Source of the DNA: Aquificaceae bacterium
GTDB lineage: Bacteria; Aquificota; Aquificia; Aquificales; Aquificaceae
Assembly (NCBI GenBank): GCA_037924335.1
Contig: JAXSMZ010000003.1
Span: 1 to 64,000, forward strand
Direction of reading: 5' to 3'
Length of the DNA stretch: 64,000 bases
This document shows, piece by piece, positions 42,727 to 50,652 of the stretch. The position numbers and the translations under genes are program-made. The number at the start of each line of letters is the position of its first letter. Position 1 is the first letter of the stretch. The notes beneath the pieces were generated by a model. The model ran no database searches. It saw only the letters and a list, made by a program, of their open reading frames with translations, and was not told the DNA's origin.

Positions 42727-43272
42727 ATGTCTATCTTAATCTTTCTTATATTTCTCATAACTTCCTGTAGTGCGGAGGATAGAAGCCAAAATCCTACTCT
42801 TGGTATAAACTCCAAGGATGTCCCCTGTAAGGTAGTTCACGTTTCAGACGGTGATACCTTTAAATGTATGCTCTCCTCTGGTGAGGAGATAAAGGTAAGG
42901 CTCATCGGCGTTGATACTCCTGAAAGTCATGTAAACCCAAAGGCAAGAAGGGATTCTCAAAGAAGCGGAATAGACCTGGAAGATATGATCAAGATGGGTC
43001 AAGAGGCATATAGGTTTACAAAAAGTTTGATAGATAAAAAAACAGTCTATTTAGAAACGGATGTTCAACTTACGGATAGATACGGAAGAATTCTGGCATA
43101 CGTGTGGTTGGATAGGGAAAGGATGCTCAACGAGGTGCTTGTAAGAGAAGGTTACGCTCAGGTTTACACCATTCCTCCAAACGTTAAGTATCAAGAGAGA
43201 TTTCTAAAGGCACAGAGAATGGCAAGTGAGGAAGGAAAAGGCTTTTGGAAAGGTTGGAAGTACGGCTTTTAA
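42727..43272 (+). CDS. Thermonuclease (SNase) lipoprotein
   Basis: Lipobox ITSC, DGDT, VRLIGVDTPE, DRYGRILAYV. Confidence 0.92.
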   Translation: MSILIFLIFLITSCSAEDRSQNPTLGINSKDVPCKVVHVSDGDTFKCMLSSGEEIKVRLIGVDTPESHVNPKARRDSQRSGIDLEDMIKMGQEAYRFTKSLIDKKTVYLETDVQLTDRYGRILAYVWLDRERMLNEVLVREGYAQVYTIPPNVKYQERFLKAQRMASEEGKGFWKGWKYGF

Positions 43273-44597
43273 AAGGTTATCTCTCTCATGATCTCTTCTG
43301 GAACTCCCACGTTATCCCTGAGCTGTCCATTTCCAAAGATTATGAACTTCTCTATGGTCAACTCCTCTAAAGCCATTGGACCCCTTGCGTGTATCTTATC
43401 TGTAGATATACCCATCTCTGCTCCCATTCCAAACTCGTTGCCATCTGTAAACCTTGTGGACGCGTTAACATACACAGCTGCTGAATCTACCTCTGTCAAA
43501 AACTTCATAGCCCTTGTGTAGTTCTCTGTAATTATGGCATCAGAATGCTTGGAACCATATTTTTCTATAAAATCTATAGCCTCTTCTATGTCATTAACTA
43601 CTTTTACAGCAAGTATGAGGTCCAAAAACTCCTCGTAGTAATCCTCCTCTTCTGCTGGCACAGCTTTAACAAAAGAAAGCTTTTGGTTGGACTTTATCAC
43701 TTCTAAACTCTCATCATCGCACCTTAACTCCACTCCTGCCTTTCCAAGTATGTAGGCCATCTTTGGAAAAAACTCTTTCAAGGTCTTTCTGTTTATAAGA
43801 AGGTTCTCCACCGCATTGCACACAGATGGTCTTTGAACTTTAGCGTTGTAAACTATGTGATAGGCTTTCTGTAAGTCTGCCTCATCATCCACGTATATGT
43901 TGCAGACTCCTTTGTAGTGCTTTATCACTGGCACCTTTGCATTTTCGGAGACAGCCCTTATTAGGCTCTCACCCCCTCTCGGTATAGCAACGTCTACCTT
44001 GCCCTCCATCTGCAGAAGCTCCCAGACTATCTCCCTCTCTGGCCTGTCTATGAACTGAATGGCATCCTCTGGGAAGCTTGTCTGTCTTGCTGCCTCTCTT
44101 AGTATCTCCACAAGGATCCTGTTAGAGTTTATGGCTTCCTTTCCACCCCTTAAAATTATGGAGTTGGATGACTTCATGCATAGGGATGCAGCCTCAACTG
44201 TCACATTGGGTCTAGATTCGTATACGATGAAAACAACCCCTAAGGGAACCCTCATCCTTCCTACTTTCAGGCCGTTTGGTAATGTCCACATCCTTGTTAT
44301 CTCGCCAACTGGGTCTTTAAGATGAGCCACATCCCTGAGAACCTTCATCATACCGTTTATCCTCTTGTCGTCAAGAAGAAGCCTGTCAATGAGTGCAGAA
44401 GAAAGACCCAAGCTCTTTGCATACTCAATGTCCTTTGCGTTCTCCTCCTTTATTAGCTCCCTTTTTTTGTCCATAAGCTCAGCAGCTAAGAGAAGGGTTT
44501 TGTTTTTTGTATCCGTCTTTAAAGATATAAGACTGCGCAGTACCTTTCTTGCTTTTTCTACCTTTTCTTCAGCATAGCTAAGAGTTTTCGAACTCAT
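43269..44597 (-). CDS. proA: Gamma-glutamyl phosphate reductase
   Basis: VYESRPNVT, PRGG, RPSVCNA, NASTRFTDG, STDKIHARGP. Confidence 0.97.
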   Translation of the reverse strand: MSSKTLSYAEEKVEKARKVLRSLISLKTDTKNKTLLLAAELMDKKRELIKEENAKDIEYAKSLGLSSALIDRLLLDDKRINGMMKVLRDVAHLKDPVGEITRMWTLPNGLKVGRMRVPLGVVFIVYESRPNVTVEAASLCMKSSNSIILRGGKEAINSNRILVEILREAARQTSFPEDAIQFIDRPEREIVWELLQMEGKVDVAIPRGGESLIRAVSENAKVPVIKHYKGVCNIYVDDEADLQKAYHIVYNAKVQRPSVCNAVENLLINRKTLKEFFPKMAYILGKAGVELRCDDESLEVIKSNQKLSFVKAVPAEEEDYYEEFLDLILAVKVVNDIEEAIDFIEKYGSKHSDAIITENYTRAMKFLTEVDSAAVYVNASTRFTDGNEFGMGAEMGISTDKIHARGPMALEELTIEKFIIFGNGQLRDNVGVPEEIMREITF

Positions 44598-44645: not shown

Positions 44646-45602
44646 CTATTTCCTTTTTGAATAAGTACCATAGGATAACGTGGCTTGCACGCCCAAGATT
44701 TCTGGGTCAAAGGGTAGGTATGTTCTTTTTGACTTGGAAAGACCGTCGATATGTATGCTTGATTTACTCGTAAAAGCGTTCCTTCCTACTATAGGTTTGT
44801 TAGGTTCAAGTTCAAGCCCCTTATTTATAACATAGTCTATCATCTGACGAAGTCCCATTATATCTATACCTGTGTGTATCTTCTGTACAACTTCAAGATA
44901 GAGAACAACCTCTTCAGTTGGAGCTATACCACATCTTTCACCCAGCCCCAGTAAAGATGTGTTTATATACTTTGCACCAGAAAGTGCTGCTACCACAGAG
45001 TTTGCTGTAGCCATACCAAAATCGTTGTGAAAATGTACCTCCACATCTATTATGGGTGAAAGTTCTCTAACAAGCTCAACCACCTTTATCGGATTTAAAA
45101 CTCCAACCGTATCAGATAGTCTTATCCTATCTGCGTCCATCTCTTTTATGTGGTCTACAAACTTGAACACAAAGTTTTTATCAGCACGGGATACATCCTC
45201 AAGCCCAACGGACACGTAAAGGCCATGAGTCTTTGCATAGGGTACTAAGTTCTTAGCAAGGCCAAGCACGTATTCCCTTGTCCTTCTTAACTTTTCTTCT
45301 ATCATGATGTCGGATATGGGGAATGCTATCTCTACTTTTTTAACCTTACACTGGATAGCGAGTTCTATATCCTTTTGGTTAGCTCTATTCCAGACGATCA
45401 GCTTTTCTGCATACTGGCTTTCTGCAAGATCCTTTATGTATTCCCTCTCTTCTTCGCTGTAAGCAGGAACACCAGCTTCTATTTCCTCCAAACCAATTAG
45501 AGCCAAGAAGAAGAATATATCTTTTCTCTCTTGATAAGAGAGTTCAAAACTTGCCGACTGAATACCCTCTCTTAAGGTAGTATCCGTTATAAATACCCTC
45601 AT
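44646..45602 (-). CDS. NifV-like homocitrate synthase (DRE-TIM family)
   Basis: DTTLREG.Q, EIEAG, W.R, EDVSRAD, RIRLSDTVG, HFHNDFGMATAN, GLGERCG; no LeuA regulatory domain. Confidence 0.8.
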   Translation of the reverse strand: MRVFITDTTLREGIQSASFELSYQERKDIFFFLALIGLEEIEAGVPAYSEEEREYIKDLAESQYAEKLIVWNRANQKDIELAIQCKVKKVEIAFPISDIMIEEKLRRTREYVLGLAKNLVPYAKTHGLYVSVGLEDVSRADKNFVFKFVDHIKEMDADRIRLSDTVGVLNPIKVVELVRELSPIIDVEVHFHNDFGMATANSVVAALSGAKYINTSLLGLGERCGIAPTEEVVLYLEVVQKIHTGIDIMGLRQMIDYVINKGLELEPNKPIVGRNAFTSKSSIHIDGLSKSKRTYLPFDPEILGVQATLSYGTYSKRK

Positions 45603-46696
45603 ACCATGCTCCCTATTTTTTCTAAAACATCCCTTAGAGTGTTAAGGAATGTTTTTATATCCCCTATGGATGTAAGAGGTGGTACTCTTATGAAGAGAAG
45701 GTCTTCAAAACCACACTTCTCCTTTATCCTACCCTTTACCCTGTTTACCATGCAGGGAGATGGATAGCTCAAAAAATAACCCTTCTTTTCCATGAAGGAT
45801 ATTAGCATTTCTGCCTCCATGTCCTTTAAACCATAAGAAAAAAGGCCAGGAGCCTTCCAACCTTCTTTAAAGACTGGAGGAAGAGATAGATTTTCCATAA
45901 TGTATCTGTCGCAAAGGTTGAGGCTTTTCTTCACAGCCTCCTCTCTTTCCATCAAAAGTGCTATAGATTTGGATAGTGAGAATGTCCCAAAGAGATTTTC
46001 CTCTCCAGCTCTTAATCCCCTCTCCTGAACCCCCCCTTCTATCAGAGGCTTGACCCTTACATTTTTTCTCACGTAAAGAACACCTACTCCCTGAGGTCCA
46101 AGCAGGAATGGTCCATCCAAGCTTGCCATATCAAGATCCCTCAAGTCAATCTGGCTGGTGGGATAATAAAGTCCCCACAGATCAAAGTGGCAAAGGGTGT
46201 TCGGATTTGCTCCTTTAACTGCCTTTGTAATTCCATTTACATCCCTCAACGTCGCCGTTTCTCTGCACACTGCCCCCATGGTGACCAACAACGTATCTTC
46301 AGTGACAGCATCTTTTACACGCTCTGGGTCTATGAAACCTGTTTTGTCTGTCCCTAAGTAAACTATCCTTAAGCCTTGTTTTTCTGATAGAGTTTTTAAA
46401 GGGTGTAGGATGGAGGGGTGTTCAAAATCGGTGGTAATTATGCTACCCCTTTTGTTCCACACAGCACCTTTTATAGCAAGGTTGTTGCTTTCCGTAGAGC
46501 TTGATGTAAAAATTATTTCAGAGTTAGCACATTTAAGGAATTCTGCCACAACTGCCCTTGACCTTACAAGCATCTCCTTTGATTTTGTGGATAATGTGTT
46601 TAGTCCAGAAGGGTTTATAAAAAAGTAGGGTAGATTATTGTAAACTTCTCTAAAGACCTCTGGAAAAGGAAAGGAGGAGTATGGTTCATAGATCAT
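45599..46696 (-). CDS. NifS/IscS-like cysteine desulfurase homolog lacking the PLP lysine
   Basis: FTSSSTESNN, EHPS, GPQGVGVLYVR and GG.QERGLR are present, but SGHK reads DGPF. Confidence 0.8.
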   Translation of the reverse strand: MIYEPYSSFPFPEVFREVYNNLPYFFINPSGLNTLSTKSKEMLVRSRAVVAEFLKCANSEIIFTSSSTESNNLAIKGAVWNKRGSIITTDFEHPSILHPLKTLSEKQGLRIVYLGTDKTGFIDPERVKDAVTEDTLLVTMGAVCRETATLRDVNGITKAVKGANPNTLCHFDLWGLYYPTSQIDLRDLDMASLDGPFLLGPQGVGVLYVRKNVRVKPLIEGGVQERGLRAGEENLFGTFSLSKSIALLMEREEAVKKSLNLCDRYIMENLSLPPVFKEGWKAPGLFSYGLKDMEAEMLISFMEKKGYFLSYPSPCMVNRVKGRIKEKCGFEDLLFIRVPPLTSIGDIKTFLNTLRDVLEKIGSMV

Positions 46697-48482
46697 GCAT
46701 AAACTCCTCTAAGGAAAGCCTGACAAGCGTCTCTTTTGTTGGCTTACCTTCCTTATCCCAGCCAAAGGCATTGTAAAACTCCTTTATCATAGACACAAGT
46801 TCCTCTTCTGTAGTTCTGTACCCCATCTCTGTACATTCTTTCTTTATCCTATCGGGCAACGTGTCATCCTTTCTGGAGAAGCCCTCTTTCACATTGAAAA
46901 GTCTTTCGAGTGTATAGATCCTTTCTCCTATCTTGTAAAGCTCGTCCATGGAGATTTCCCAATCCATTAGGGCGTTAACCATATTCAGTATCTCCTCATT
47001 GAGCACGTACCCCACAACCCTTTCCGCACTAAGACAGTAGATGATGCTGTTGACCACACATGTCCAAACAGCAAGGTCCTTACCCATTTTTCCTTTACCC
47101 TCTGGCTTTCCTAAGGGTACTATGTTATTCTCTTCCATTCCAGGCCTTATATCGCAATGGACTGGTCCCCTGTTGGAAACAGCGTAACCAAGAGCCTGAG
47201 TCTTTACAGCCCTTGGAGAATGTCCTGCTATCTCCGTACCTTTGACTGTCAAAAGAAAGGACTCTCCTATACCAAGGAACTTAGAGGCCCTCTGAGAGCC
47301 TTCCGCAAGCACATTACCTATACCTTCCCTAAAAGCTATCTTCTTTAATAGTTTTTTGACAGCCTCAGTGTTGCCAAAATTAAGCTCAAGTCCATCCAAA
47401 CTTTCCCTACTTATGAGCCCCTTCTCATAACACTCCATAATCCATGCTACCACTCCACCGGTCTGTATCTGCCCAAGCCCAAGCTCGTCTGTCAGCCTAT
47501 CCAAGCTTATCAGCTCATCCAAATCCCAGTTTCCAATGGCTGTTCCCATAGAAAAAATACCCTCATACTCCGGACCAACTGTGAAGGTATCTTTACTCAC
47601 AGAGTATTTTCCACAGGGAACTATGCATCCAAAACAGGAAATATCCTTTATCACCTTACTCCTCAACGATTCTCCGCTGATCTTTTCTGCAAAGGGGAAG
47701 GTCTCCCTTTGCCAGTTGTATGAGGGCAGAGCTCCAATGTGCTGAAGATGCATAACCCCTGCAGCCGTTCCAAACATCACAAGATTCTTAACTCCAGGAT
47801 GTTTATGGACTTTTTCCTCAAAGCCTTTTATAAAGTCAATGAGTTTATCAGGATTACGAGGTTTTAATAACCTTTCCCCTCTTACTGTGATAGCCTTTAC
47901 TCTTTTTGAACCGAGGACAGCACCAATACCACCGGTGCCCACAGCTCTTAGGTCTGATATAACGCAGGCATACTTTACAAGATTTTCACCAGCTGGACCG
48001 ATAACGAGAGTTTTCACATCCTCTCCATACTTTTCCTTTAGCTTTTTTTGAGCAATACTCGTGTAGGAACCCTTTAGTTCCTCTGTCTTGTTGAAGTAAA
48101 CCTTATCGTTCTCTATGTGTATATGTGTCCAATCATGGCAAGATCCGGTGAGTATAATACCATCCCACCCGGCAAACTTTATTTCCTGTCCAAACTCACC
48201 CCCGCAGAAGCCTTTGGTAAAGCCCAGCGTCTGGGGAGATTTGGTAAACATAGCAAGTTTTGAAGCCATCGGTAAAAGGGTACCGTTTGCTGGGCCTGTG
48301 TTGATTATCACAGGATTATCCTCTGAAAGAGGGTCAGAACCTCTTTTTGTAAACTTGTAAAGAAGGTATACACCTAAGCCGTTTCCTCCTAAGTACTTCT
48401 CTACAAGCCCTTCAGGTACTTCGTAAACATCGTACTTCCTTTCTGTAAGGTCTATTAGAAGATACCTTCCCCACCAACTCAT
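46686..48482 (-). CDS. Aldehyde:ferredoxin oxidoreductase family (W/Mo-pterin) catalytic subunit
   Basis: YLGG.GLG, KSPQT, GPAGENLV, GAVLGSKRVKAI, CFGCIVPC, GPEYE, ERLFN...G...DDTLP.R. Confidence 0.9.
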   Translation of the reverse strand: MSWWGRYLLIDLTERKYDVYEVPEGLVEKYLGGNGLGVYLLYKFTKRGSDPLSEDNPVIINTGPANGTLLPMASKLAMFTKSPQTLGFTKGFCGGEFGQEIKFAGWDGIILTGSCHDWTHIHIENDKVYFNKTEELKGSYTSIAQKKLKEKYGEDVKTLVIGPAGENLVKYACVISDLRAVGTGGIGAVLGSKRVKAITVRGERLLKPRNPDKLIDFIKGFEEKVHKHPGVKNLVMFGTAAGVMHLQHIGALPSYNWQRETFPFAEKISGESLRSKVIKDISCFGCIVPCGKYSVSKDTFTVGPEYEGIFSMGTAIGNWDLDELISLDRLTDELGLGQIQTGGVVAWIMECYEKGLISRESLDGLELNFGNTEAVKKLLKKIAFREGIGNVLAEGSQRASKFLGIGESFLLTVKGTEIAGHSPRAVKTQALGYAVSNRGPVHCDIRPGMEENNIVPLGKPEGKGKMGKDLAVWTCVVNSIIYCLSAERVVGYVLNEEILNMVNALMDWEISMDELYKIGERIYTLERLFNVKEGFSRKDDTLPDRIKKECTEMGYRTTEEELVSMIKEFYNAFGWDKEGKPTKETLVRLSLEEFMHDL

Positions 48483-48700
48483 GACACAAACTCCAAAGCA
48501 TTTAGAAGACAAAAATCAATACAGTACAATTCCTGACAATCTTCACAATAGCCTAACCTGTATGCGATGGGTTTATTCCCTATGTCCGTTTTTATTTCAA
48601 TGGAGGAGTACCTTGGATTAAAACCTCCCTTTTTATAAAAGGAACAGGCCAACATGCACCTTTTGCATCCTGAACAAAGGTCTAAGTTTAACCTTATCAT
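48479..48700 (-). CDS. 4Fe-4S ferredoxin-like subunit
   Basis: CSGCKRCMLAC and CEDC...CIDFC; coupled to the AOR gene. Confidence 0.85.
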   Translation of the reverse strand: MIRLNLDLCSGCKRCMLACSFYKKGGFNPRYSSIEIKTDIGNKPIAYRLGYCEDCQELYCIDFCLLNALEFVS

Positions 48701-48701
48701 C

Positions 48702-48956
48702 TTAGCCTCCTGCAGTTGGAAGTGTTATCACAAGCTCGTCATCTTCCTTCACCACCTCCGTGTCCTTACAAACCAGTCTACCGTTTAGTATTAGAAGTAT
48801 GCCCTCCCACAACTGGCCTCCGCTGTAAAGGAGTGCATCCATACCCTTTAAGTTTGAAACCCTGTCAAGCACATCCTTTATGTTTTTAACGTTTTCTATT
48901 TCAATGACCTCCTTTCCAGCAACATACCCAAGGTAGCCCAACAGTTTCACCCTCAT
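48702..48956 (-). CDS. MoaD/ThiS-family ubiquitin-like sulfur carrier
   Basis: ILNGR...DDELVITLPTAGG with C-terminal GG. ATG 48956 is preferred because ATG 48965 lies upstream of the predicted sigma54 +1. Confidence 0.85.
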   Translation of the reverse strand: MRVKLLGYLGYVAGKEVIEIENVKNIKDVLDRVSNLKGMDALLYSGGQLWEGILLILNGRLVCKDTEVVKEDDELVITLPTAGG

Positions 48957-48970
48957 CCTAGACATTATTG

Positions 48971-48986
48971 TGCAAAGAATATGCCA
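48971..48986 (-). promoter_or_regulatory. Sigma54 (-24/-12) promoter of the moaD-fdx-aor-nifS-like-nifV-like operon
   Basis: Minus strand reads TGGCAT-ATTCT-TTGCA. Confidence 0.85.
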
Positions 48987-49004
48987 GGTTTTTATTATGT
49001 TTTT

Positions 49005-49042
49005 TGTAAACTTTGTTACAAAAAAATGTAAGAAAAATTACA
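49005..49042. promoter_or_regulatory. Two tandem NifA-type UAS (TGT-N10-ACA)
   Basis: TGTAAACTTTGTTACA (49005-49020) and TGTAAGAAAAATTACA (49027-49042), 22 bp apart. Confidence 0.78.
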
Positions 49043-49059
49043 AAACCTTTTTATTCCAT

Positions 49060-49075
49060 TGGTACAGATGTTGCA
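49060..49075 (+). promoter_or_regulatory. Sigma54 promoter of the nifA-like gene
   Basis: TGGTAC-AGATG-TTGCA, ending 14 nt upstream of ATG 49090. Confidence 0.75.
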
Positions 49076-49089
49076 TATATTATTTTAGG

Positions 49090-50652
49090 ATGGATATGGA
49101 GATTTTAAAGAGGTTTATGAGTGCTGAACTTCAACTACTTTATAACTTATCAAAAAAACTCACCACAATGAATTTAAACCCTGGGCAGTTAATGAAAGAC
49201 TTAGTATATATGCTTGGTGAGTTAGAAGGTGTTAGGAGGGTGGCCCTTTACGTTGCCAATACAGATACATCTAGCGTATCTTTGGTTTCGAGCATTGGTG
49301 TGAATGAGAGCAACGTAACGCTTGATAAGGAAGAAGGTGTGGTAGGCTTTATATTTGGAAAGGGCTATCCTGTTGTTATTAAGAATCTTATGGAAGAGCC
49401 ACTTTTCTTAAACAAGATCAAGAGAGAAAGGCTAAACGATGTAAGCTTCATAGGTGTTCCAATTAGGTACAACGACAAGATCGTAGGCGTTATAACAGTT
49501 GATATAAACAAGGGATTTATCGCAACGGCATACTTAGCAGACCTACTTCTCATGATAGCGAACCTTATAGGGAATTATATATACACTTACATGAAGCTAA
49601 ACGAGAGGGAGAGTGTCCTTAAAGAAGAGATAGCGACGCTTAAGAGAGAGTTTATAAAAAAGTTTAAGGTTGAAGGGTTCATAGGCGTAAGTAGGGCTTA
49701 TCAAAGCATCGTAAAACAGGTTTTGAAGATAGCTGAATTGGACGTTACCGTGATGATAAGGGGGGAATCTGGAACAGGCAAGACTACACTTGCCAAAGCT
49801 ATCCATTACTTTTCTAAAAGGAAAAACCGCCCCTTTGTTGAGATTAACTGTTCAGCGATTCCCACAGAATTACTCGAAGCAGAGCTTTTCGGTTATGAAA
49901 AGGGTGCATTCACCGGTGCTTACACCACAAAGATAGGCAAGCTTGAGGCAGCAAATGGGGGAACTATATTCTTTGATGAGATAGGAGACTTAAGCCTTAC
50001 CATTCAGGCAAAGCTTTTAAGGTTTATGCAGACAAAGGAATTTGAGAGGCTTGGTAGCACAAAAACGCAGAGGTCTGATGTCAGGATCATAGTTGCAACG
50101 AATAAAAACCTTGAAAATATGGTAGCAAAGGGAGCGTTCAGAGAAGACCTATATTATAGGATAGCTATCTACCCCATATATATTCCGCCTTTAAGAGAGA
50201 GGAAGGAGGACATCCCCGTTTTAGTTCAGCATTACCTAACCCAGCTCGGCAGTATGATAGGTAGAAAGTTAAAGGTTGAAGAGAGCACATTGAAGGCGAT
50301 AACATCCTGTGATTTTCCAGGTAATGTAAGGGAACTGATCAACTGTCTGACAAGAGCCGCCATATCATCCAACACGGACCTTATAAAGATGAGCGACCTA
50401 TCGTGCATAGGTACAGGTGTATGTTTTTCTCATATTAAGAAGGAGGATACTGAAAAAGAGAATACGCAGGTGGGAATAAAAGGACAAAAAGATCCCACTG
50501 TTTATGTGCCAAAAGATGAAAGGTCCATGATCATAGAGACTCTCGAGAAGGTTGGTTATGTTCAAGCAAAAGCGGCAAGATTGCTTGGTATGACAGTTAG
50601 ACAGCTCAATTACAGATTGAAGAAGTACAATATACCCATAAAGAAGATTTGA
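49090..50652 (+). CDS. nifA: NifA-type sigma54 activator (GAF-AAA+-HTH)
   Basis: GAF domain, GESGTGKT, ELFGYEKGAFTGA, C-x11-C-x19-C-x5-C linker, QAKAARLLGMT.RQ..YR HTH. Confidence 0.8.
   Translation: MDMEILKRFMSAELQLLYNLSKKLTTMNLNPGQLMKDLVYMLGELEGVRRVALYVANTDTSSVSLVSSIGVNESNVTLDKEEGVVGFIFGKGYPVVIKNLMEEPLFLNKIKRERLNDVSFIGVPIRYNDKIVGVITVDINKGFIATAYLADLLLMIANLIGNYIYTYMKLNERESVLKEEIATLKREFIKKFKVEGFIGVSRAYQSIVKQVLKIAELDVTVMIRGESGTGKTTLAKAIHYFSKRKNRPFVEINCSAIPTELLEAELFGYEKGAFTGAYTTKIGKLEAANGGTIFFDEIGDLSLTIQAKLLRFMQTKEFERLGSTKTQRSDVRIIVATNKNLENMVAKGAFREDLYYRIAIYPIYIPPLRERKEDIPVLVQHYLTQLGSMIGRKLKVEESTLKAITSCDFPGNVRELINCLTRAAISSNTDLIKMSDLSCIGTGVCFSHIKKEDTEKENTQVGIKGQKDPTVYVPKDERSMIIETLEKVGYVQAKAARLLGMTVRQLNYRLKKYNIPIKKI

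What the first reader, a model, noticed from the sequence alone, without database searches (positions are those of the whole stretch)
44646..50652. NifA-controlled operon joining an AOR-type pterin oxidoreductase to nifS- and nifV-like genes
Seen: five genes with overlapping or abutting stops and starts (moaD-like, 4Fe-4S ferredoxin, AOR-family enzyme, NifS-like, NifV-like). They run from a sigma54 promoter, divergent from a NifA-type activator, and no nifHDK lies in the window. Established: nifS-nifV is the order in nif clusters; NifV makes homocitrate for FeMo-co; AOR enzymes use a W/Mo-bispterin cofactor and reduce ferredoxin; the known electron routes to nitrogenase are NifJ/NifF, Fix and Rnf. 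I know of no AOR wired into a NifA regulon. Two inferences. (a) This is an unrecognised nif-regulon branch in which AOR plus ferredoxin supplies low-potential electrons or handles Mo/W for a nitrogenase encoded elsewhere. (b) nif genes were co-opted to mature an unusual pterin-metal cofactor, with homocitrate as metal ligand and MoaD plus the NifS-like protein as sulfur relay.
Basis: partly seen in the sequence, partly recalled or inferred. Interest (0 to 1): 0.92.

Follow-up and report, generated by a model that had tools for sequence, protein, structure and literature searches.

The report
Aldehyde oxidoreductase recruited into nitrogen fixation
In hot-spring Aquificales bacteria, a gene for an unusual aldehyde-oxidoreductase-family protein is part of the nitrogen-fixation gene set and travels with it; it likely supplies low-potential electrons to nitrogenase where the usual suppliers were not found, which is untested.

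Summary
The window is one of three pieces of a complete nif gene set; nifHDKENX and nifB lie on other contigs. Among 148 Aquificales genomes, all 9 with an intact nifH carry this AOR/WOR-family gene. In the 8 relatives it lies 2-15 kb from nifH. Its tree mirrors the nif trees and it is under purifying selection. Its sigma54 promoter carries the same TGT-N10-ACA sites as nifH and the nifB operon. The protein keeps the AOR fold, the 4Fe-4S cysteines and most catalytic residues. It belongs to a small clade that has lost two near-invariant pterin-pocket residues (R186, D343). No tungstate permease and only one MoeA were found, which points to Mo rather than W. The MoaD-like and ferredoxin genes are the AOR's own accessories (WorX, shortened WorS). 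The NifS-like protein lacks the PLP lysine, so reading (b) fails. Best guess (about 0.4): an electron feed to nitrogenase in place of Fix/Rnf, both not found. Against an essential role: 3 diazotrophs of a sister family lack it. No expression or activity data exist here. One key paper was not available.

The parts
44646..45602 (-). nifV, homocitrate synthase-type; 318 aa, C-terminally shorter than canonical NifV
   Evidence: Best model TIGR02660 but under its cut-off. Groups with nif-cluster NifVs, two of which pass the cut-off, and apart from the genome's LeuA/CimA-like paralogues. Found in the same 7 of 61 genomes as nifH.
45599..46696 (-). NifS/IscS-like protein without the PLP lysine; the C-terminal Cys is kept; probably a nif-dedicated paralogue of the Aquificales IscS
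   Evidence: the Lys is absent in 9 of 9 nif-cluster copies and also in 25 of 25 housekeeping copies read.
46686..48482 (-). AOR/WOR-family large subunit (WorL), 598 aa, of the clade lacking R186 and D343 (Pyrococcus AOR numbering)
   Evidence: Pfam AFOR_N+C; E 7e-104 to 1AOR; model pLDDT 96, TM 0.94-0.96 to AOR structures; clade and residues.
48479..48700 (-). 73-aa two-cluster [4Fe-4S] protein, an internally shortened WorS small subunit
   Evidence: Eight Cys kept; aligns with a 150-aa four-cluster AOR neighbour that has the middle part. Fused to the AOR in clade member P0040.
48702..48956 (-). MoaD/ThiS-like protein (WorX) ending in GG
   Evidence: WorX next to WorL is described in PMC13328260.
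48971..48986 (-). sigma54 -24/-12 site of the worX-worS-worL-nifS-nifV operon
   Evidence: Strict match in 6 of 8 genomes at the same spacing; one-mismatch variant in the other 2.
49005..49020 (.). TGT-N10-ACA NifA-type upstream site 1
49027..49042 (.). TGT-N10-ACA NifA-type upstream site 2
49060..49075 (+). sigma54 -24/-12 site of the activator gene (predicted autoregulation)
49090..50652 (+). NifA-type GAF-AAA-HTH activator, 520 aa
   Evidence: A close GAF-region orthologue (E<1e-58) occurs in 8 of 148 genomes, all AOR carriers. It lies directly before nifH in G004, G005 and G015.

Best explanation
The locus is a detached piece of the Aquificales nif gene cluster, in which an AOR-family oxidoreductase with its own small iron-sulfur subunit and MoaD-like helper is predicted to be switched on by NifA with the other nif genes and likely passes low-potential electrons from an aldehyde-level substrate to ferredoxin and nitrogenase. 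Shown: gene content, synteny with nifH, co-inheritance, purifying selection, shared promoter sites, intact fold and catalytic residues, no ETF/Fix or Rnf family match. Inferred: NifA control; a bis-molybdopterin cofactor, more probably Mo than W; electron flow WorL -> WorS -> ferredoxin -> NifH. Speculative: in an autotroph the aldehyde would be regenerated with NAD(P)H and ATP (acid -> acyl-phosphate or acyl-CoA -> aldehyde -> acid), an ATP-driven way to make reduced ferredoxin. NifV makes homocitrate for FeMo-co as usual. The NifS-like protein cannot be an ordinary desulfurase.
For: Co-occurrence: AOR, nifH and nifV in the same 7 of 61 genomes. Of 148 order genomes, 9 of 9 with intact nifH have the AOR; 0 of the 137 without it have an intact nifH, and the 2 with a broken nifH lack it. 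AOR-nifH distance is 2.3-15.3 kb in 8 relatives. The AOR tree matches the nifH/D/B/E trees, including a cross-family pair G080+G044. dN/dS is 0.08 against G006; identity 73-76% across genera, above NifV and NifS. Of 59 sigma54-like sites in the genome, 9 have a TGT-N10-ACA site upstream, and 5 of these are nif promoters, this one included. In G044 the AOR follows a nif-specific ferredoxin III behind such a promoter. The four FeS Cys, T243, E311 and H448 are kept in 49 of 49 clade sequences; E313 is kept in the Aquificales copies. No ETF (controls 10 of 14) and no RnfD (controls 4 of 14) in the 99.9% complete genome. PMC12780486 section 16 notes the same lack in a diazotrophic Aquificaceae and leaves the electron route open.
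Against: No expression, substrate or mutant data; the one RNA run does not hold the locus. Three genomes of family f5 with intact nifH lack this AOR, and 2 of them lack MoeA, so it is not needed for nitrogenase in general. All Aquificales must already reduce ferredoxin for reverse-TCA carbon fixation without it (own knowledge). An autotroph has few free aldehydes. If the metal is Mo, the centre would be expected to be less reducing than W (recalled). E313 is Gln in 10 of 49 clade sequences, all outside Aquificales. The activator cannot be told from the Nlh-like paralogue on C17 by the NifA model (486 against 484 bits), and glnB, nirB-like and globin promoters share the site. PMC12780486 proposes ferredoxin-NADP+ reductase instead.
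Confidence: 0.42

Rival explanations
1. It is a nif-regulated redox enzyme but not the electron donor: it removes or recycles a harmful compound (an aldehyde leaked by 2-oxoacid oxidoreductases, or an oxidant) while the cell fixes N2 in low oxygen, or it acts as a reductase.
For: Detoxification is the usual role of WORs (PMC13328260). It is found in the Aquificales diazotrophs and not in the 3 f5 diazotrophs, which are probably anaerobes (lifestyle inferred). Mo-type signs fit a higher-potential centre.
Against: This does not explain why non-fixing sister genomes of the same genera, with the same carbon metabolism, never keep the gene (0 of 137 AOR-free genomes fix; no AOR carrier shown to lack nif). 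It is coupled to nif ferredoxin III in G044.
Confidence: 0.25
2. The protein handles metal for FeMo-co: it stores or delivers Mo in place of NifQ, or traps tungsten so that it does not enter nitrogenase. The altered pterin pocket would serve that purpose.
For: Loss of R186 and D343 and the change D489N in the pterin pocket. No NifQ match (no positive control). A TOBE-domain gene in the G015 cluster. Only ModA-type uptake was found.
Against: Catalytic second-shell residues and a dedicated FeS subunit are kept. The same pocket changes occur in non-Aquificota members, one of which sits in a worX-worS-B12 radical SAM-worL locus with no nif gene in 4.7 kb. The f5 diazotrophs manage without it.
Confidence: 0.17
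3. The AOR module is a passenger that once inserted into the nif cluster and has no role in N2 fixation.
For: Only about 11 related genomes carry it, and kin are not independent. The clade exists outside nif clusters. 78 of 80 loci from a genome-wide scan were non-nif AORs of other clades.
Against: All three genes stay inside the cluster after rearrangement in G044 and G080. Strong purifying selection. Absent from the two genomes with broken nifH. MoaD has lost its GG in G005, where nifD is also split.
Confidence: 0.09
4. One reading: NifV and NifS were co-opted to build an unusual pterin-metal cofactor for the AOR, with homocitrate as ligand.
For: The operon order worL-nifS-nifV, the altered pterin pocket, and AOR-nifS adjacency in 9 genomes.
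Against: An intact Mo-nitrogenase needs this sole NifV. The NifS-like protein has no PLP Lys and is absent from the G044 cluster. nifV faces the other way in G044 and G080. A non-Aquificota clade member has neither gene nearby.
Confidence: 0.03

Closest known systems
W-dependent aldehyde:ferredoxin oxidoreductases (PDB 1AOR, 9G7J, 9MQX, 8C0Z)
   Same: Fold (TM 0.92-0.96), four FeS cysteines, T243/E311/Y312/E313/H448, R182/A183/G95.
   Different: 31-35% identity; R186->T, D343->G, T344->Q, D489->N, Y427->H. No TupB match and a single MoeA in the host. Sits in a nif regulon.
Class II WORs (WorL+WorS: PfASOR/WOR5, CbGOR; PMC13328260 section 9 read)
   Same: Large subunit with an adjacent FeS small subunit; a WorX/ThiS-like gene nearby; His at the Y427 position as in WOR5 (PMC12096430 passage).
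   Different: The small subunit has two clusters, not four. The main text and 3 held supplements do not mention nitrogen, nif or Aquificae.
E. coli YdhV (Mo-bis-MPT, function unknown)
   Same: Also lacks R186 and, on a gapped alignment, D343, yet binds bis-MPT (PMC12096430 section 6).
   Different: A distant clade with a Cys ligand and no second-shell catalytic residues; membrane-linked operon.
Known electron routes to nitrogenase: FixABCX, Rnf, NifJ/NifF, ferredoxin-NADP+ reductase
   Same: The proposed job; in the case of Fix and NifJ, also control with the nif genes (recalled).
   Different: ETF and RnfD families were not found in this genome. No AOR route appeared in the searches run.
Aquifex Nlh1/Nlh2 NifA-like activators (PMC9866876 passage) and lysine-less IscS (PDB 9WFY series, 4EB5)
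   Same: GAF-AAA-HTH design; IscS fold without the PLP Lys.
   Different: The window's copies are separate paralogues confined to nif-bearing genomes.

Membership tests
AOR/WOR family | AFOR_N + AFOR_C domains and AOR fold | tested here: met
AOR/WOR family | [4Fe-4S] ligands C288, C291, C295, C494 | tested here: met
   49 of 49 clade sequences
Aldehyde-oxidising WORs | Second-shell T243, E313, Y427, H448 | tested here: met
   T, E and H are kept in the window's protein; Y427 is His, a state seen in WOR5 and in 31 of 145 representatives
Canonical W-AOR | Pterin-contact residues R76, G95, R182, D343, D489 (list from bioRxiv 2023.01.23.525143) | tested here: not met
   G95 and R182 kept; R76->K (common); D343->G; D489->N. 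Near-invariant R186 is also lost
Canonical W-AOR | Host tungsten machinery (Tup transporter, second MoeA) | tested here: not met
   TupB 0 of 148 at 1e-35 (one weak control only); one MoeA in 10 of 11 carriers and none found in the 11th, against two in 2 of 2 f5 genomes with another AOR-family protein. WtpA was not searched genome-wide; the two binding proteins score as ModA
AOR/WOR family | Bound W- or Mo-bis-MPT and aldehyde oxidation | not testable with these tools
   Needs purified protein
Class II WOR | WorS with four [4Fe-4S] clusters | tested here: not met
   73 aa with eight Cys; the middle part is deleted
NifA | GAF-AAA(GAFTGA)-HTH architecture | tested here: met
NifA | Score above the TIGR01817 cut-off and separation from Nlh-like paralogues | tested here: not met
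   484 < 529 bits; the C17 paralogue scores 486 and nests among nif-cluster activators in the tree
NifA | Confined to and syntenic with nif clusters; UAS at nif promoters | tested here: met
NifA | Binds the UAS and activates transcription under N limitation | not testable with these tools
   No RNA holder listed
NifV | Score above the TIGR02660 cut-off | tested here: not met
   324 < 463 bits; the protein is about 50 aa short. The G044 and G080 copies pass
NifV | Groups with nif-cluster NifV rather than LeuA/CimA; metal HxH, catalytic Glu, His and Tyr kept | tested here: met
   (FastTree support 0.97). Residue roles are recalled; no AksA or named reference was included
NifS cysteine desulfurase | PLP-binding lysine (SxHK) | tested here: not met
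NifS cysteine desulfurase | Persulfide-carrying Cys in the C-terminal loop | tested here: met
   C315 invariant in 31 of 31
NifS cysteine desulfurase | Adjacent nifU | tested here: not met
   The single IscU-type gene lies on C22, away from nif genes

The most novel reading that the evidence does not exclude
Aquificales diazotrophs run a previously undescribed electron route to nitrogenase: a NifA-controlled, molybdenum-type AOR with a rebuilt pterin pocket which, in an ATP- and NAD(P)H-driven acid-aldehyde loop, makes reduced ferredoxin in place of Fix and Rnf.
Probability: 0.28. Interest if true: 0.88.

Novelty: new variant of a known kind. Interest (0 to 1): 0.7.

Why it matters
How thermophilic, oxygen-respiring Aquificales reduce nitrogenase is an open question in print: Fix and Rnf are absent (PMC12780486). 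This locus gives a named, deletable candidate that is conserved in every intact Aquificales nif cluster examined. It also defines an uncharacterised WOR clade that has lost two residues kept in 438 of 440 other aligned family members, in hosts with no sign of tungsten uptake. That makes it a test case for what sets Mo against W in this family. Aquificae nif genes also appear in nitrogenase-engineering studies (search listing), so a missing accessory function would matter there.

Tried and rejected
A first structure prediction from 7 sequences failed (pLDDT 40); it was redone with 125. Complex prediction of the AOR with the NifS-like protein gave no answer (score 0.01); this is no evidence either way. 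RNA: no RNA holder was listed, and the one run laid covered only 38-50-letter pieces of the activator from other organisms. Context for non-Aquificota clade members: the metagenome scan returned 1 clade member among 80 loci; the genome scan returned none outside Aquificota among 80; 0 of 401 sampled genomes of the phylum of G178 matched P0132. So whether the about 20 unnamed clade proteins are nif-linked stays open. The BamB residues at R186/D343 could not be displayed, so the Mo reading lacks that control. The tandem ModA pair is limited to G000 and G006 and does not track the AOR. proA after nifV is limited to G000 and G006 and is treated as the insertion site. The NifQ search had no positive control. 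Sigma70 and terminator scans were at chance level. Earlier scan findings: nothing returned. Papers not held: Palmer et al. 2025, Poudel et al. 2018, Boyd et al. 2015, Batchelor et al. 2013. Rejected: 'generic activator and LeuA-like synthase unrelated to nif', and 'cofactor-less pseudo-enzyme' as the main reading, because YdhV lacks the same pair and binds bis-MPT.
Full report
1. Observation. The five genes and the divergent activator are present as described, with overlapping or abutting ends. The 133-bp spacer holds two opposed sigma54 sites and two TGT-N10-ACA sites. Shuffles gave two UAS in 6 of 5000, two sigma54 sites in 0, and both features in 0. Names that sources give to close homologues (73-75% identity: Thermocrinis albus, Hydrogenobacter sp. 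T-2) place the organism in the Aquificales.

2. The genome is a diazotroph by gene content. G000 (99.9% complete) has nifH-D-K-E-N-X on C1 and PII-PII-nifT-nifB-fdx-nifW-nifZ on C13. NifD passes its cut-off and keeps the FeMo-co ligand motifs (motifs recalled). The window holds the only NifV-type gene; the other two close paralogues are LeuA/CimA-like. So the window is one of three fragments of a cluster that is contiguous in relatives.

3. The AOR belongs to the nif cluster. In 61 genomes the AOR, nifH over its cut-off and the nifV orthologue occur in the same 7. In the phylum scan of 178 genomes, 24 have an AFOR_C match. Of these, 11 are in the order, and 13 in family f5 are a distant protein of about 680 aa. 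Intact nifH occurs in 12 genomes: 9 in the order, all with the AOR, and 3 in f5, none with it. Two genomes with a broken nifH (G087, G128) have no AFOR_C match. Two AOR carriers have no nifH hit: G111 (54% complete, with nifA-moaD-fd-aor-nifS-nifV at a contig end) and G083 (86% complete, a 1.7-kb contig). In the 8 relatives with both genes, the AOR lies 2.3-15.3 kb from nifH. In G044 and G080 the cluster is rearranged, yet worL, worS and worX all stay inside it; in G044 worL follows a nif-specific ferredoxin III behind a sigma54/UAS promoter. The AOR tree matches those of NifH, D, B and E, including the pairing of G080 (f1) with G044 (f3) (the correlations of 0.87-0.95 are descriptive, since kin are not independent). 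dN/dS against G006 is 0.08; synonymous sites are saturated in the other pairs.

4. Regulation. At least one TGT-N10-ACA site lies before worX in 8 of 8 genomes; a strict sigma54 site in 6 of 8 and a one-mismatch site in 2. Of 59 sigma54-like sites in G000, 9 have such a site upstream: nifH, nifA, this operon, the PII-nifB operon, the Rop-like nif gene, glnB, a nirB-like gene, a globin-like gene and one with no ORF (the last gene names are read from N-terminal sequence). The activator's close orthologue is found in 8 of 148 genomes, all AOR carriers, and stands before nifH in three. Against a clean call: it scores under the NifA cut-off, a paralogue on C17 scores the same and nests among the nif activators, and NifA-like activators are known in Aquifex (PMC9866876, passages). 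Nitrogen-linked sigma54 control is likely; control by this protein alone is inferred.

5. The enzyme. A model from 125 sequences (pLDDT 96) matches AOR structures at TM 0.92-0.96. In a 75-row tree, 26 rows form one clade (SH-aLRT 100): 13 Aquificota-type and 13 unnamed metagenome proteins (quick method, midpoint root, rows subsampled from about 290). The clade keeps the four FeS Cys, T243, E311 and H448 (49 of 49), has E313 in 39 of 49 and His, Phe or Leu at Y427. It has lost R186 and D343 together. Over 511 aligned sequences (some duplicates), 438 keep both, 59 lack both, 2 keep only R and 12 are gapped. D343, with D489 (here Asn), is a listed pterin contact (bioRxiv 2023.01.23.525143, passages, by offset numbering). 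The co-variation suggests a coupled pair (inferred; no coordinates were available). E. coli YdhV, the Mo-bis-MPT member (PMC12096430 section 6 read), also lacks R186 and probably D343, so the loss does not exclude a cofactor. The genome has moaA, moaE and one moeA and ModA-type uptake. No TupB was found in 148 genomes (weak control), and carriers have one MoeA where two f5 genomes with the other AOR-family protein have two. Mo is therefore more likely than W, on weak evidence.

6. The small genes. The MoaD-like protein is the WorX seen beside many WORs (PMC13328260, first part of section 4 read). The ferredoxin is a WorS with the middle deleted and is fused to the AOR in P0040. The only non-Aquificota clade member with context reads worX-worS-B12 radical SAM-worL, with no nif gene in 4.7 kb. 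The module therefore came as a unit and was recruited by nif. The NifS-like protein lacks the PLP Lys in 9 of 9 nif copies, as do 25 of 25 housekeeping IscS read; the closest PDB entries differ among themselves at that residue. It is probably a Cys-donating FeS-assembly partner rather than a desulfurase (by analogy with Archaeoglobus IscS; its Cys ligand role from a PMC13066941 passage, its inactivity recalled).

7. Mechanism. ETF/Fix and Rnf were not found. PMC12780486 (section 16 read) reports the same for a nitrogen-fixing Aquificaceae and suggests ferredoxin-NADP+ reductase. Acid/aldehyde couples are low enough to reduce ferredoxin (recalled, about -580 mV). That the module is a functional part of the nif regulon I put near 0.9. 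Points against the electron role: the f5 diazotrophs lack it, non-fixing relatives reduce ferredoxin without it, no substrate is known, and Mo would raise the potential.

8. What is in print. Searches (listings and abstract openings) showed no paper linking an AOR to a nif cluster. The one paper holding all terms was not opened. PMC13328260 has no 'nitrogen', 'nif' or 'Aquific' in its main text or in 3 held supplements (46,000 characters; the large datasets may not be among them). PMC6307999 (passages) shows nitrogenase activity in Hydrogenobacter isolates and has no 'aldehyde'. PMC12727526 was seen as passages only. Palmer et al. 2025, Poudel et al. 2018 and Boyd et al. 2015 were not held and may mention the gene, so novelty is provisional.

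9. Verdict. The finding is real and conserved. It is a new variant of a known enzyme family in an unreported setting, with a testable role in an open question. Interest 0.70.

Noticed in passing
G000:C1:102698-104337 (L024:12698-14337): nifK is split into two adjacent ORFs (251 and 295 aa) in G000 and the other Aquificaceae-type clusters, and whole in G044, G080 and f5. Already noted in print (PMC12780486).
   Followed up: partly
G000:C2:124920-126155 and L234-L257: All 25 housekeeping IscS-like proteins read from Aquificales lack the PLP lysine; G000 shows no other desulfurase homologue at E<1e-4, so its sulfur source for FeS clusters is unusual.
   Followed up: partly
window 48956-48986 and 49060-49090: Both sigma54 sites begin 30 nt before the start codon, the worX one at 29-33 nt in the relatives with a strict match, which would give leaders of only about 4 nt; the UAS lie closer to the promoter than is usual.
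   Followed up: partly
L029 (G005) and L031/L039 (G044): Signs of decay: G005 has split nifD and crp-like genes, MoaD ending in GE and a changed NifV metal motif; G044 has split nifA and nifE. G087 and G128 hold broken nif remnants.
   Followed up: partly
G000:C13:18063-18260 (L269:4064-4261): A 66-aa ORF after nifZ, conserved in several nif clusters, with no NCBIfam hit (no Pfam hit for its orthologues); it looks TOBE/molbindin-like by eye.
   Followed up: no
G000:C1:100593-102701: Crp-like, DUF269 and DegT-aminotransferase-like genes sit between nifK and nifE in the Aquificaceae-type clusters.
   Followed up: no
G000:C1:23509-27086: Two tandem ModA-type binding proteins share one permease; a close copy was found only in G006.
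   Followed up: yes
L121:507-4265: An AOR of the same clade sits in a worX-worS-B12 radical SAM-worL operon, which hints at a cofactor or substrate methylation step in non-Aquificota members.
   Followed up: partly
L212-L215 (family f5): A distant AOR-family protein of about 680 aa in 13 of 28 f5 genomes, none of them among the three with nifH; it lacks the first FeS Cys in my alignment.
   Followed up: no
window 43269-44597: proA follows nifV on the same strand in G000 and G006 only; probably the insertion site of the moved block.
   Followed up: yes
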